Shown here piece by piece: positions 15,106 to 20,491 of a DNA stretch of 31,701 nt. Position numbers and translations under genes: made by a program. Location of the stretch: the NCBI GenBank assembly GCA_038061545.1, contig JBBTZE010000087.1, forward strand, positions 1 to 31,701. Reading direction: 5' to 3'. The DNA is from Patescibacteria group bacterium. Lineage in GTDB: Bacteria; Patescibacteriota; Microgenomatia; UBA8517. A model generated the notes under the pieces. That model searched no databases, was not told the DNA's origin, and worked only from the letters and a program-made list of their open reading frames with translations. Positions within the stretch are counted from its first letter, which is position 1. Each line of letters begins with the position of its first letter.

Positions 15106-15360
15106 ATGGCAGAAAGATACACTATTCCAATAAATAGAAAACAGGGTGCCGTTTTGTCTACACTTGGTTGTACTGTGGAAGAAAAAGCAAACAACTATTC
15201 TTATATTGGGGTAGAATTTGCAAAAGACGAAGAGAAGAAGACTGTTGAGGAATTAATAGGTAAAGGTTTATTGGTTAGAGAAGCGGATAAACTAATTCAA
15301 ACTGATTTAGGGAAAGACGTTGCATTTAAGTTCGGGGCTACGATTTTGTACGAGGATTAA
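15106..15360 (+). CDS. Small hypothetical protein, possibly winged-helix
   Basis: 84 aa directly after rpsG. ELIGKGLL...TDLGK resembles a winged-helix wing pattern. Confidence 0.55.
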   Translation: MAERYTIPINRKQGAVLSTLGCTVEEKANNYSYIGVEFAKDEEKKTVEELIGKGLLVREADKLIQTDLGKDVAFKFGATILYED

Positions 15361-15385
15361 ATAATTGAGAATCTAACAAAGAAAC

Positions 15386-15411
15386 AGTACTGTGATTCGA
15401 ATCATAGTACT
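15386..15411. promoter_or_regulatory. Palindromic site downstream of TrpR-like gene 1
   Basis: AGTACTGTGATTCGAATCATAGTACT, 23/26 identical to 15885-15910. Confidence 0.75.
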
Positions 15412-15424
15412 ACATCAGTTTAAA

Positions 15425-15868
15425 TTATAATGGCTCTTCTCGCTTCCACTTTTTTTCGCGTTTAGATTTTTTCCATTCTCCAATATTCGCTCCCTTTGGT
15501 GGAAGTGGAGTTAAAATATCGAGTAGCTCTGACAAGGCTGATTTAGCAACTTTTCTTTTAAGAATGTCTCCCAAGATTTTTTTGTATCCCTTTCCTTGCA
15601 ACGCAAAAACAGCGTGAATTTTTGCAATGGTTCCTTTGCTTACCTTTAAAGTTTTTGAAATCTGAACGTACGTGTATTTATTTTCAAGTAAAAGAAACGC
15701 AACAGCCACTCTTTTAGCCATCATTATTTTTTCAACTGGGGAAAGTAAATCATTCAAGAAATCAACTACTTCGCTTGAACTTTTTGTATTTTTAACAGAT
15801 TCGATAAAAACTCTATAAACCTTTTCTTCGATTACAGGGGACATAAAATGCTTCGAAACCTGTGTCAT
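15425..15868 (-). CDS. TrpR-like (YerC/YecD family) HTH protein, paralog 1
   Basis: FLNDLLSPVEKIMMAKRVAVAFLL...TYVQISKTLKVSKGTIAKI matches the TrpR/YerC pattern. Confidence 0.85.
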   Translation of the reverse strand: MTQVSKHFMSPVIEEKVYRVFIESVKNTKSSSEVVDFLNDLLSPVEKIMMAKRVAVAFLLLENKYTYVQISKTLKVSKGTIAKIHAVFALQGKGYKKILGDILKRKVAKSALSELLDILTPLPPKGANIGEWKKSKREKKWKREEPL

Positions 15869-15883
15869 GTCTTTATATATTTA

Positions 15884-15911
15884 TAGTACCATGATTCGAA
15901 TCATGGTACTA
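15884..15911. promoter_or_regulatory. Perfect 28-bp palindrome overlapping the promoter of TrpR-like gene 1
   Basis: TAGTACCATGATTCGAATCATGGTACTA. The minus strand contains TG-N-TACTAT as an extended -10. Confidence 0.8.
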
Positions 15912-15963
15912 ATTGAGGCTGGAAACAGCAATATCGTAAACACTTTAGATTATTATCGAATAA

Positions 15964-15992
15964 TTGATTTATGAGCAAGGAAAGAGTAATCT
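15964..15992 (+). promoter_or_regulatory. Sigma70 promoter of ORF 16002
   Basis: TTGATT, 17 bp, TAATCT, 9 nt before ATG. Confidence 0.5.
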
Positions 15993-16001
15993 TCACCCAT
16001 T

Positions 16002-16301
16002 ATGGCAAAAATTAGTGCGGAAGGAATCGTTTGTCCAGCGCTTCAGGCAGCTTACGAAAGAGCTATGAAAAAAGCGTTTGATAAAGGACGAATGCCAAAA
16101 AGTAATGTTAGATGGCCTTCCGAATATGGAAACTATGTTTCAGTCAAAGGAGCTTTGGAAGGATCTGATGCTTGTCTAGAATACGGTAAGAAGATTGAAG
16201 TTGATTTACATTTAAATCAGATTAAGGGTGCTCACGATGAGGAAAGGAATCCAATAAAAGTTTCCGGAACAGAATGTAAGAAAAAGGAAGGCAAGAAATA
16301 G
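16002..16301 (+). CDS. Hypothetical protein
   Basis: 99-aa ORF with candidate promoter. No recognised family. Confidence 0.6.
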   Translation: MAKISAEGIVCPALQAAYERAMKKAFDKGRMPKSNVRWPSEYGNYVSVKGALEGSDACLEYGKKIEVDLHLNQIKGAHDEERNPIKVSGTECKKKEGKK

Positions 16302-16424: not shown

Positions 16425-18593
16425 ATGGCAGAAGTAGCAAAGAAAAAAGCAAGTATAGTTGTAACGGCAACAAAGGACCGTAATGTTTCCTATGAAAAGA
16501 TCCGTAATATCGGCATTATTGCCCATATTGATGCCGGTAAAACCACAACCACAGAAAGACTTCTTTTTGAGACGGGCCGAACGTATAAGTTAGGATCCGT
16601 CGATGAAGGAACAACCGTTACCGACTGGATGGCCCAAGAAAGAGAACGTGGAATTACAATCGTTTCTGCTGCAATCACCGCTTTTTGGGACTTAAAAAAG
16701 GCCACTTCGGTCGAAGCCGGTCACTACAGAATTAATTTGATTGACACCCCCGGCCACATTGATTTTACAGCAGAAGTTGAACGATCACTCCGCGTTTTAG
16801 ATGGTGCCGTAATGGTTTTTGACGGCAGAACGGGTGTTGAATCCCAATCAGAAACCGTGTGGAGACAGGCAGACAAATATAATGTTCCAAGAATTTGTGT
16901 TCTTAACAAATTGAACCTAATTGGAGCCGATTTTGAGGGTTCATTGGTTTCTATCAAAGACAGGCTTGGTGCCAATGCAGTGCCTGTAATTTACCCAATT
17001 GGCCAGGAGCATGAACACCGTGGAGTAATTGATTTGATAACAATGAAGGCACTTACCTATAAAGATGTTGCCGATGCCGGTTTAACCGAAGGGGAAATCC
17101 CATCAGATCTTCTGGAAGTCGCCAAAAAATACAGAACCGATCTTTTGGAGCGTGCATGTGAGTTTGATGATGAGGCACTGGCCAAGTTTTTGGAAGGCCA
17201 AGAGATTGATGAAGTTACACTTAAAAAAGCAATCAGAAAAGGTGTAATTTCCGGTAAACTTTTCCCAATTTTTGGCGGAGATAATAGAACCGCAGAAGCT
17301 CAGCTTCTTTTGAACGGCGTTGTTGAATATTTGCCTTCCCCAAATGATTTGCCGCCAGTCGAAGGAATTGATCAAAAAACTGGAGAAAAAACTACCCGTG
17401 AGCGCAAAAACGAGGCTCCTTTTTCAGGTTTGGCATTTAAAATCATGACCGATCCGCACGTAGGACGCTTGGTTTATGTCCGTGTTTATTCGGGAAAACT
17501 TTCGGCAGGACAGCAGGTTTATAACTCCACCAAGCAAAAATACGAAAGAATTGGAAAGCTTATTCTTCTTCACGCGGATCAACGTGAGCTTATCGAAGAA
17601 GCCTATGCAGGAGAAATTGTGGCTGTGGTAGGAATTAAAGACACTTCAACCGGGGACACCTTGTGTGATCCTGATCACCAACTTAACCTGGAATCAATCA
17701 GCTTCCCGGAACCTGTTATTTCACTGGCCATTGAACCTGCAACCAAGAGCGACCAGGAGAAAATGGGACTGGCACTTGGCAAGCTTTCCGATGAGGATCC
17801 AACCTTCAGAATTAAGAGTAACCCGGAAACCGGCCAAACCATTATTAGTGGTATGGGGGAACTGCAACTTGAAGTGCTCGTAGACCGCATGAAACGTGAA
17901 TTTGGGGTCGTTGCCACAACCGGAGCACCACAAGTAGCCTACAAAGAAACTATCAAGAAAGAGGGCGTTGGTGAAGGTAAATACATCAGGCAAACCGGAG
18001 GTCGTGGTCAGTACGGACATTGTTTACTTAGGATCGAGCCAATGGGCAGGGGTGAGGGATTTGAATTTAAAAGCGAAATCAAGGGCGGTGCCATTCCACA
18101 GGAATACATTAACCCAATCGAAAAAGGTGTCAAAGAAAAAATGGAGAATGGAATTTTGGCAGGGTTTCCTATCGTTGACATGAAGGTCGCGGTTTACGAT
18201 GGAAGCTATCACGACGTCGATTCTTCAGAAATTGCGTTTAAGATCGCAGGAAGCATGGCCTTGACCGACGCTTTTGGAAAGTCCAGCCCGATTCTTCTTG
18301 AGCCTATCATGAAAGTTGAAGTTTCAACTCCCGACGAATTTATGGGAGACGTGATTGGGGACTTGTCCAGTAAACGCGCCCAAATTTCCGGAAGTGAGAA
18401 GAAGGGAACAATGACAATTATTAATGCTACAACCCCACTTGCTGAGCTTTCAGGATATGCAACCAAATTGAGATCTCTTACTCAAGGGCGTGCATCATAT
18501 TACATGGAGCCATCCCACTACGAAGAAGTTCCAAACAACATTACTCAGGCAATTATTGCCAAAGCAGGCAAGATTGAAATGCCTCGCGGCTAA
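16425..18593 (+). CDS. fusA: Elongation factor G
   Basis: AHIDAGKTT, ERGITI, DTPGHIDF, YHDVDSSE. ATG at 16425 preferred over the GTG inside the repeat. Confidence 0.98.
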   Translation: MAEVAKKKASIVVTATKDRNVSYEKIRNIGIIAHIDAGKTTTTERLLFETGRTYKLGSVDEGTTVTDWMAQERERGITIVSAAITAFWDLKKATSVEAGHYRINLIDTPGHIDFTAEVERSLRVLDGAVMVFDGRTGVESQSETVWRQADKYNVPRICVLNKLNLIGADFEGSLVSIKDRLGANAVPVIYPIGQEHEHRGVIDLITMKALTYKDVADAGLTEGEIPSDLLEVAKKYRTDLLERACEFDDEALAKFLEGQEIDEVTLKKAIRKGVISGKLFPIFGGDNRTAEAQLLLNGVVEYLPSPNDLPPVEGIDQKTGEKTTRERKNEAPFSGLAFKIMTDPHVGRLVYVRVYSGKLSAGQQVYNSTKQKYERIGKLILLHADQRELIEEAYAGEIVAVVGIKDTSTGDTLCDPDHQLNLESISFPEPVISLAIEPATKSDQEKMGLALGKLSDEDPTFRIKSNPETGQTIISGMGELQLEVLVDRMKREFGVVATTGAPQVAYKETIKKEGVGEGKYIRQTGGRGQYGHCLLRIEPMGRGEGFEFKSEIKGGAIPQEYINPIEKGVKEKMENGILAGFPIVDMKVAVYDGSYHDVDSSEIAFKIAGSMALTDAFGKSSPILLEPIMKVEVSTPDEFMGDVIGDLSSKRAQISGSEKKGTMTIINATTPLAELSGYATKLRSLTQGRASYYMEPSHYEEVPNNITQAIIAKAGKIEMPRG

Positions 18594-19165: not shown

Positions 19166-19195
19166 TTGACATAGTCAATTAGCCTCGAATATAAT
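19166..19195 (+). promoter_or_regulatory. Sigma70 promoter of tuf-rpsJ
   Basis: TTGACA, 18 bp, TATAAT. The -35 is overlapped by the palindrome TTGAC-ATA-GTCAA. Confidence 0.8.
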
Positions 19196-19294: not shown

Positions 19295-20491
19295 ATGGCA
19301 GACGCAAAACAAAAATTTGATAGAACAAAGCCACACGTAAACATTGGTACTATTGGTCACGTTGACCATGGTAAGACCACTTTGACTGCTGCAATTTCTA
19401 CAGTTTTGTCCAAACAACCGGGAAACACCTCAAAAGCTTACAAATTTGACGAGATCGATAATGCTCCTGAGGAAAAAGAAAGAGGAGTTACAATCAACAT
19501 CTCCCACATTGAGTACGAAACCGCAAAAAGACATTATGCCCATATTGACGCCCCGGGGCACGCCGACTACATCAAAAACATGATTACAGGTGCTGCACAA
19601 ATGGACGGTGCAATTCTTGTCATCTCGGCAGCTGATGGGCCCATGCCACAAACCCGTGAGCACGTTATTTTGGCCAGACAGGTCAATGTTCCTTCCATTA
19701 TCGTTTTCCTCAATAAATGCGACACAGTTGATGACCCGGAAATCATTGATTTGGTTGAGGCAGATGTCAGAGAACTCCTTAAGAAATACCAATATCCGGG
19801 AGATGAAGTTCCTGTTATCAGAGGCAGTGCTCTTAAGGCTATGGAAGGCGATGCTGATGCAGAAAAGAAAATCATGGAACTTATGGATGCGGTTGATACA
19901 TACATTCCAACCCCAGTCAGAGACACAGAAAAGCCGTTCCTTATGCCAGTTGAAGATGTATTTACAATCTCCGGACGCGGAACAGTTGTTACAGGTAGGG
20001 TTGAGCGCGGAATAGTTAAGCTTAATGAGGAGCTTGAGATAATTGGACTTAAGGATACTCAAAAAACAGTCGTAACCGGCCTTGAAATGTTCAGAAAGCT
20101 TCTTGATGATGCTCAAGCCGGAGACAATGTTGGAGTACTTATCAGAGGAATTGAGAAAAACCAAGTTGAGCGCGGACAAGTTCTTGCAAAAATAGGAACA
20201 GTCAAAGCTCACACAGAATTTGACGCGGAAGTCTATATTCTTAGCAAAGAAGAGGGTGGGCGTCATACTCCATTCTTCACAGGTTATAAGCCTCAGTTCT
20301 ACATTAGAACTGCAGACGTAACAGGAGAAGCAACTCTTCCTGAGGGAATCGAAATGGTTATGCCTGGGGACAATGCCAAGATGAAAGTTAAGCTTATTGC
20401 CCCGGTGGCCTTGGAAGAAGGACTTAGATTTGCAATCAGAGAAGGCGGGCACACAGTTGGAGCAGGCGTCATTACTAAAGTAACAGCATAA
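19295..20491 (+). CDS. tuf: Elongation factor Tu
   Basis: [27 protein letters not shown]. Start set to ATG at 19295. Confidence 0.99.

What the first reader, a model, noticed from the sequence alone, without database searches (positions are those of the whole stretch)
16905..17288. EF-G with altered guanine-recognition motifs (G4 NKLN, G5 GGDNR)
Seen: the G4 position reads VLNKLNLIGADF (16905-16916 = NKLN) and the G5 region reads IFGGDNRTAEAQ, while G1 and G3 are intact and EF-Tu in this window keeps NKCD and GSAL. Established: G4 is NKxD in translational GTPases, D-to-N (EF-Tu D138N, Ras D119N) switches preference towards xanthosine nucleotides, and EF-G G5 is typically GSA. Inference: paired changes imply a remodelled base pocket with relaxed or changed nucleotide specificity, plausible in a nucleotide-scavenging symbiont. 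It may be lineage-wide.
Basis: partly seen in the sequence, partly recalled or inferred. Interest (0 to 1): 0.6.

Follow-up and report, generated by a model that had tools for sequence, protein, structure and literature searches.

The report
Mosaic EF-G with rebuilt guanine pocket
The only ribosome translocation factor (EF-G) of this ultra-small bacterium has both side chains that normally read guanine swapped, on a roughly 160-residue segment exchanged between distant lineages, so which nucleotide powers it (probably still GTP, possibly also ATP) is open and directly testable.

Summary
Confirmed. The str-operon EF-G (16425-18593; TIGR00484) of a Woesebacteria-type Patescibacteria genome has G4 NKLN and G5 GDNR instead of NKxD and GSAL. 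The catalytic motifs are intact, and it is the only EF-G found. It is not a sequencing error: 8/8 family genomes and 120/120 nearest proteins share it. Across 256 EF-Gs, G4 Asn and G5 Asp are perfectly linked (56 vs 200), with an invariant Arg and a one-residue-shorter loop. It is not class-wide: 3 of 50 families carry it. The gene is a mosaic. Residues ~128-290 resemble variants from other classes, while domains II-V follow the own class (AU p=4e-51 and 0.006). Both guanine-reading side chains are swapped (Asp to Asn, Ser to Asp). Best reading (0.5): the Asp has relocated and GTP is still used. Main rival (0.3): ATP or dual use, as in SpoIVA. Xanthosine use is unlikely (0.05). The other GTPases keep the Asp, and NDK and Ham1 presence do not track the variant in the phylum sample. 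I found no paper describing this pocket. This scan noted the same pocket earlier in Saccharibacteria and Dojkabacteria. Specificity is untested.

The parts
16425..18593 (+). fusA, elongation factor G (722 aa, domains I-V), the only EF-G found in the genome
   Evidence: TIGR00484 999.8 bits vs cut-off 659.4; all five Pfam domains; no second EF-G in G000 or in 5 near-complete family genomes, three of them single-contig with only EF-Tu, EF-G and IF2
16521..16547 (+). G1/P-loop AHIDAGKTT, canonical
   Evidence: 48/48 variant EF-Gs identical
16638..16652 (+). Switch I RGITI (G2), canonical EFG I signature
   Evidence: PMC3150367
16689..16718 (+). 10-residue insertion before G3, similar (SVEAG) to one in canonical-pocket family f17; marks the native backbone left of the exchanged segment
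16743..16757 (+). G3/switch II DTPGH with the catalytic His, canonical
16806..17294 (+). Exchanged segment, residues ~128-290 (G4, G' subdomain, G5), of the variant type; borders are approximate (left between residues 86 and 128, right just after 288)
   Evidence: 19 of 22 informative columns inside are variant-type, 23 of 24 outside are own-class-type; AU tests; identity baseline
16905..16916 (+). G4 motif N161-K-L-N164 (Asp to Asn)
   Evidence: linked to G5 Asp in 56/56 cases
17274..17288 (+). G5 loop G-G-D286-N-R288 (Ser to Asp, Leu to Arg, loop one residue shorter)
   Evidence: G285 to P307 = 23 residues in 48/48 variants, 24 in 128/128 canonical
19295..20491 (+). tuf (EF-Tu) with canonical NKCD/GSAL; internal control

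Best explanation
This is the cell's housekeeping EF-G. It translocates tRNA-mRNA and recycles ribosomes through the usual P-loop, switch I and switch II chemistry (shown: sole copy found, str-operon position, intact motifs). Its base pocket was rebuilt as one unit: G4 Asp to Asn164, G5 Ser to Asp286, G5 Leu to Arg288, and a one-residue-shorter, Gly-rich loop (shown). The unit lies on a ~160-residue segment (G4, G', G5) that was exchanged by intragenic recombination between Patescibacteria lineages, so the gene is a mosaic (well supported; direction unknown). Inferred mechanism: Asp286 sits where the Ser that flanks the old Asp used to be and takes over as hydrogen-bond acceptor for guanine N1-H/N2-H. 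Asn164 supports it, Arg288 stacks on the base like the Lys of the Ras SAK motif, and Asn161 and the G5 backbone amides still read N7 and O6. GTP remains the working nucleotide, perhaps with altered affinity or weaker discrimination.
For: Perfect G4-Asn/G5-Asp linkage in 256 EF-Gs, with no N+Ser or D+Asp combination. The new residues are invariant (D286 and R288 in 48/48) and codon-degenerate, so they are selected. In solved EF-G the G4 Asp reads N1/N2, and the G5 Ser plus the +2 backbone NH read O6 (PMC8446442), so the new Asp lies inside the same pocket. In family f67, EF-Tu has lost the G4 Asp (NKFG/NTFG) and shows GSAL to GDAL without an indel in 3 of 4 genomes, which fixes the register and repeats the exchange in a second protein. 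EF-Tu, IF2, BipA and LepA of this family keep the Asp, and G000 has an NDK-family gene, so GTP is in use. The AF2 model of the G domain keeps the EF-G fold (pLDDT 84; TM 0.80-0.85 to solved EF-Gs). Mosaic.
Against: Read naively, the swap turns an acceptor/donor pair (Asp, Ser) into a donor/acceptor pair (Asn, Asp), which fits adenine's edge. Loss of the G4 Asp plus a new G5 acid is what made SpoIVA and engineered Era prefer ATP (PMC7952092). One f67 EF-Tu lacks an Asp at both sites. A neutral compensation does not by itself explain repeated spread across classes. With motif columns removed, FastTree groups all variants (0.945) but the careful IQ-TREE run left that grouping open.
Confidence: 0.5

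Rival explanations
1. The pocket was switched or relaxed towards adenine. Asn164 donates to adenine N1 while hydrogen-bonding Asp286, Asp286 accepts from the 6-amino group, and the shortened Gly-Gly-Asp loop moves the O6-reading amides. EF-G would then run on ATP, or on ATP and GTP, sparing GTP regeneration in a host-dependent cell.
For: The donor/acceptor polarity of both base-reading side chains is inverted (positions from PMC8446442; the geometry is my inference). Precedents in the same GTPase class: SpoIVA and engineered Era (PMC7952092), YchF/OLA1 (PMC10144078), promiscuous FeoB with a variable G5 (PMC11406355). The same exchange arose in f67 EF-Tu, in genomes whose EF-G is already variant. 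Repeated spread of the segment suggests a benefit. In the own class NDK was found in 6/12 variant vs 27/28 canonical genomes.
Against: Asn161 and Lys162 of NKxD are kept, whereas SpoIVA and YchF lost the Lys. The new acid is at the Ser site, not at the SxE third position of SpoIVA, where this protein has Arg. Across the phylum NDK presence does not differ (31/36 vs 37/44), and the class-level difference rests on three related families. EF-Tu and IF2 of this family still need GTP.
Confidence: 0.3
2. GTP use is unchanged. The segment spread because it escapes something that binds or modifies the canonical G domain or G' surface (for example (p)ppGpp, a toxin, a phage protein or an antibiotic), or because it alters nucleotide exchange rate or L7/L12 coupling.
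For: The exchanged unit includes the whole G' subdomain, with many linked surface changes (residues 134-139, 198, 211-220). Close relatives within one family carry different types (f59, f62: 80-81% identical in domains II-V but 50-51% in the segment, against 76-77% for same-type pairs), a pattern that fits conflict-driven exchange.
Against: No antagonist was identified. The most strictly linked columns are the base-contact residues themselves. All 19 phage-contig EF-Gs with both motifs readable were canonical, so no viral carrier was found.
Confidence: 0.13
3. One reading: the factor prefers xanthosine or inosine nucleotides, like engineered EF-Tu D138N or Ras D119N.
For: D-to-N at this position is the documented xanthine switch (PMC7952092). 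A strong Ham1/RdgB match was not found in 8 family genomes; two had only weak matches.
Against: Those mutants keep the G5 Ser. An Asp there would face the Asn carbonyl in the xanthine-binding orientation (inference from known Ras/EF-Tu geometry). 12 of 36 other variant genomes encode a Ham1-family pyrophosphatase, the same rate as canonical ones (16/44). An essential factor would need millimolar XTP, for which I know no route.
Confidence: 0.05
4. Sequencing error, decay, or a dispensable EF-G2-like paralogue.
For: The assembly is a fragmented metagenome bin (105 contigs, 86% complete).
Against: 8/8 family genomes and 120/120 near proteins agree. It is the single copy in complete relatives. RGITI is intact, and the EF-G2 models score far below cut-off.
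Confidence: 0.01

Closest known systems
Canonical bacterial EF-G (FusA, EFG I subfamily; TIGR00484; solved: T. thermophilus 1DAR, S. aureus 2XEX, M. tuberculosis 7CDW, E. coli 7N2C)
   Same: Five-domain layout, str-operon position, G1, RGITI and DTPGH; fold TM 0.80-0.85.
   Different: G4 Asp to Asn, G5 Ser to Asp and Leu to Arg, G5 loop one residue shorter; the G4-G'-G5 segment has a different history from the rest of the gene.
EFG II / EF-G2 paralogues (PMC3150367)
   Same: Diverged EF-G family members.
   Different: EFG II relaxes G2 (RGITI) but keeps G4 NKxD and G5 gSAx, the opposite pattern. They are extra copies, whereas this is the only EF-G found.
Engineered xanthine-specific GTPases (EF-Tu D138N, Ras D119N)
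   Same: Asn in place of the G4 Asp.
   Different: They are single mutants that keep the G5 Ser; here the Ser site is Asp in every natural case.
SpoIVA, YchF/OLA1 and promiscuous FeoB (GTPase-fold proteins that use ATP)
   Same: Loss or displacement of the G4 Asp with G5 remodelling; SpoIVA gained a G5 acid.
   Different: Different families. SpoIVA and YchF also lost the G4 Lys; SpoIVA's acid is two residues after the Ser, whereas here it replaces the Ser; FeoB keeps the Asp.

Membership tests
EF-G (TIGR00484, EFG I) | Score above the curated equivalog cut-off | tested here: met
   999.8 vs 659.4 bits
EF-G (TIGR00484, EFG I) | Domains I (with G'), II, III, IV and V in order | tested here: met
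   Pfam; full-length alignment to 1DAR
EF-G (TIGR00484, EFG I) | G1 GxxxxGKT, G2 RGITI, G3 DxPGH | tested here: met
EF-G (TIGR00484, EFG I) | Position in the str cluster (rpsL-rpsG-fusA-tuf) | tested here: met
   rpsL 14123, rpsG 14617, fusA 16425, tuf 19295, with small ORFs inserted
Canonical-pocket translational GTPase | G4 NKxD | tested here: not met
   NKLN. It is an EF-G orthologue by all other criteria, so it is filed as a variant, not as canonical-pocket.
Canonical-pocket translational GTPase | G5 gSAx | tested here: not met
   GDNR, loop one residue shorter
Canonical-pocket translational GTPase | Strict GTP specificity and ribosome-stimulated GTPase activity | not testable with these tools
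   needs biochemistry
EFG II / EF-G2 | Relaxed G2 (xxxSx) and presence as a second copy | tested here: not met
   RGITI intact; sole copy; NF009377 524 vs cut-off 890
Xanthine-switched D-to-N GTPases | G4 Asn with the G5 Ser retained | tested here: not met
   0 of 56 G4-Asn EF-Gs keep Ser, Thr or Ala at that site
SpoIVA/YchF-type ATP-using GTPase folds | Loss of both Lys and Asp of NKxD (NSxR, NxxE) | tested here: not met
   Asn-Lys is retained in all variants

The most novel reading that the evidence does not exclude
A natural, essential EF-G that drives ribosomal translocation with ATP (or with ATP and GTP), whose pocket segment has been passed by intragenic recombination between classes of Patescibacteria and copied convergently by EF-Tu in one lineage.
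Probability: 0.3. Interest if true: 0.9.

Novelty: new variant of a known kind. Interest (0 to 1): 0.6.

Why it matters
NKxD is described as conserved even in the divergent EFG II paralogues (PMC3150367). An essential EF-G without it, in many CPR lineages, is a natural experiment on how a GTPase reads its base, and it makes an old question testable: must translocation be paid for in GTP? If GTP is retained, this is a clean case of a relocated recognition residue in a universal protein. If ATP is accepted, it changes the energy budget of translation in these symbionts. Separately, the mosaic structure shows that a core translation gene used as a phylogenetic marker has exchanged a ~160-residue segment across classes, so fusA trees of CPR bacteria can mislead.

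Tried and rejected
Sequencing error, pseudogene or paralogue: rejected. Class-wide trait: rejected, 12 of 90 fetched genomes in 3 of 50 families. Whole-gene common descent of the variants: rejected by the AU test on domains II-V. Link to loss of XTP/ITP clean-up (Ham1): none across the phylum, 12/36 vs 16/44. Link to loss of NDK: none across the phylum, 31/36 vs 37/44; the own-class difference (6/12 vs 27/28) rests on three related families and G000 itself has NDK, so it was not used. Phage carrier: none; viral-contig EF-Gs were canonical. Literature: five searches returned no description of this pocket; the library lacks most subscription papers. The AF2 model gave fold and confidence only, without coordinates or ligand, so pocket geometry could not be measured. 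Complex prediction was not run because it cannot score a ligand. The careful IQ-TREE run on the motif-free segment did not resolve the variants as a supported clade, so a single origin is likely but not proven. Searches failed on input errors and were corrected; the script stopped after printing the counts used and was completed.

Full report
Observation. The gene at 16425-18593 (+) encodes a 722-aa EF-G. It scores 999.8 bits on TIGR00484 (cut-off 659.4), stays far below the cut-offs of EF-G2 models, has all five domains and lies between rpsL-rpsG and tuf. Bases 16905-16916 give N161-K-L-N164 and 17274-17288 give G284-G-D286-N-R288. G1, RGITI and DTPGH are canonical.

Origin and copy number. 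The nearest named relatives (78-86% identical in the G domain) are Candidatus Woesebacteria, that is Microgenomates within Patescibacteria. No second EF-G was found in the 86%-complete own genome or in five near-complete family genomes. Three of those are single contigs with only EF-Tu, EF-G and IF2 as translational GTPases. EF-Tu, IF2, BipA and LepA, where present, keep the G4 Asp. The variant is therefore on the housekeeping factor and is specific to it in this family.

Not an error. All 8 family genomes carry NKLN and GGDNR with synonymous variation at both key codons, and the 120 closest database proteins all do.

Distribution and linkage. Among 256 EF-Gs, 56 have G4 Asn with G5 Asp and 200 have G4 Asp with Ser, Thr or Ala; no mixed case occurs. 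All 48 genome-handle variants have G-D-x-R and a loop one residue shorter than all 128 canonical ones. In the own class only families f1, f5 and f38 of 50 carry it. Elsewhere in the phylum it occurs in 22 of 63 families fetched; this sample was enriched for the variant, so it is not a frequency. Named carriers include Saccharibacteria and Dojkabacteria. The other named bacterial EF-Gs fetched and the phage-contig EF-Gs were canonical, apart from L034, labelled Gammaproteobacteria but about 80% identical to family f1, and L039, an unnamed bacterium closest to variant family f59.

The gene is a mosaic. In sliding windows the family resembles its own class everywhere except from roughly residue 100-125 to 300, where it resembles variants of other classes. 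Of the informative columns, 19 of 22 between residues 128 and 288 are variant-type and 23 of 24 outside are own-class-type (columns are not independent). In a tree of domains II-V the own class, variants included, is one clade (SH-aLRT 95), and holding all variants together is rejected (p-AU 4e-51, quick tree). In a tree of the segment with the motif columns removed, holding the own class together is rejected (p-AU 0.006). FastTree recovers all 55 variants as one clade there (0.945), but the careful run left this open, so one origin is likely, not proven. Two families contain both types: the pairs are 80-81% identical in domains II-V but 50-51% in the segment, against 76-77% for same-type pairs at that distance. 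A 10-residue insertion just left of the segment resembles one in canonical-pocket family f17. The borders fall near the conserved G3/switch II region and just after G5, which are plausible crossover sites (inference). Direction and number of exchanges are not established.

What the changes touch. In M. tuberculosis EF-G-GDP, the G4 Asp binds N1-H and N2-H, and the G5 Ser side chain plus the backbone NH two residues later bind O6 (PMC8446442); EF-Tu uses the same set of residues (PMC6144822). Here both side chains are exchanged (Asp to Asn164, Ser to Asp286) and the stacking Leu is Arg288. The register is confirmed independently: EF-Tu of family f67 lacks the G4 Asp and, in 3 of 4 genomes, reads GDAL for GSAL without an indel; the fourth lacks both. 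An AF2 model of the G domain (pLDDT 83.8; 87 over the G5 block) matches solved EF-Gs at TM 0.80-0.85, but it had no ligand and its coordinates could not be read.

Mechanism. Shown: intact catalytic machinery, sole copy found, a selected co-varying pocket, segment exchange. Inferred, best reading (0.5): Asp286 replaces the lost carboxylate as acceptor for guanine N1-H/N2-H, Asn164 buttresses it, Arg288 stacks on the base, Asn161 and the backbone amides still read N7 and O6, and GTP remains the fuel. Main rival (0.3): the inverted donor/acceptor pair fits adenine (Asn to N1, Asp to N6). SpoIVA and engineered Era became ATP-preferring through loss of the G4 Asp and gain of a G5 acid (PMC7952092); YchF and FeoB are further precedents. 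Against this, the Asn-Lys pair is kept, the acid sits at a different position than in SpoIVA, and NDK presence does not differ across the phylum. Escape from an inhibitor or altered kinetics with GTP retained (0.13) would explain the spread but has no direct support. The xanthosine reading (0.05) ignores the Ser-to-Asp change, which should disfavour the xanthine-binding orientation of the Asn (my inference from known Ras and EF-Tu geometry), and a third of variant genomes encode an XTP/ITP-removing Ham1-family enzyme.

Comparison and novelty. It is an EF-G orthologue by score, domains, catalytic motifs and gene position, but it fails the G4 and G5 consensus that even EFG II keeps (PMC3150367). 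It is not an EF-G2, not a simple D-to-N mutant and not a SpoIVA/YchF-type protein. No paper describing this pocket was found. Earlier notes of this scan report the same pocket in Saccharibacteria and Dojkabacteria, one mentioning recombination and two mentioning EF-Tu. I used them as leads and re-tested the points here. This window adds a carrier in a class that is otherwise canonical, with formal tests and approximate borders of the mosaic. Verdict: real, a new variant of a known kind, mechanism open but cheaply testable; interest 0.6.

Noticed in passing
L307-L310 (genomes G217, G240, G166, G193; family f67): EF-Tu lacks the G4 Asp (NKFG, NTFG, NKFP); three have GDAL for GSAL and one keeps GSAL, so it has neither Asp. 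G217 also lacks the G4 Lys.
   Followed up: partly
G002, G063, G085 (single-contig family genomes; L314-L326): Only three PF00009 translational GTPases were found (EF-Tu, EF-G, IF2); no LepA or BipA with this query, and IF2 is short (about 480 aa).
   Followed up: partly
window 15106-16301: The str cluster is interrupted between rpsG and fusA by an 84-aa ORF (15106-15360), a TrpR/YerC-like gene on the minus strand (15425-15868; weak match) and a 99-aa ORF (16002-16301); the two small ORFs have no Pfam or NCBIfam match.
   Followed up: partly
window 19166-19195: A perfect sigma-70 consensus promoter (TTGACA-18-TATAAT) followed by a hairpin and T-run upstream of tuf; about 700 bp separate fusA and tuf.
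   Followed up: no
window 16557-16571 (EF-G residues 45 and 49): Arg45 and Tyr49 are nearly invariant in canonical EF-Gs but variable in variant ones, although they lie outside the exchanged segment; this may reflect released contacts with the old G5 loop.
   Followed up: no
G000:C103:1897-2430 and many Patescibacteria genomes: The NDK gene matches the Pfam model in two pieces within one ~190-210-aa frame, that is an NDK with an internal insertion.
   Followed up: no
L261-L279 (viral contigs): Several contigs of 200-480 kb classed as viral encode full-length EF-G with a canonical pocket.
   Followed up: no
L034 (CAZCXV010000002.1): Record titled Gammaproteobacteria, but its EF-G is about 80% identical to this Woesebacteria-type family; probably a mislabelled bin.
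   Followed up: partly
L011-L013, L024 (family f17): G4 reads NKND (Asn at the normally hydrophobic x position) in several canonical-pocket relatives.
   Followed up: no
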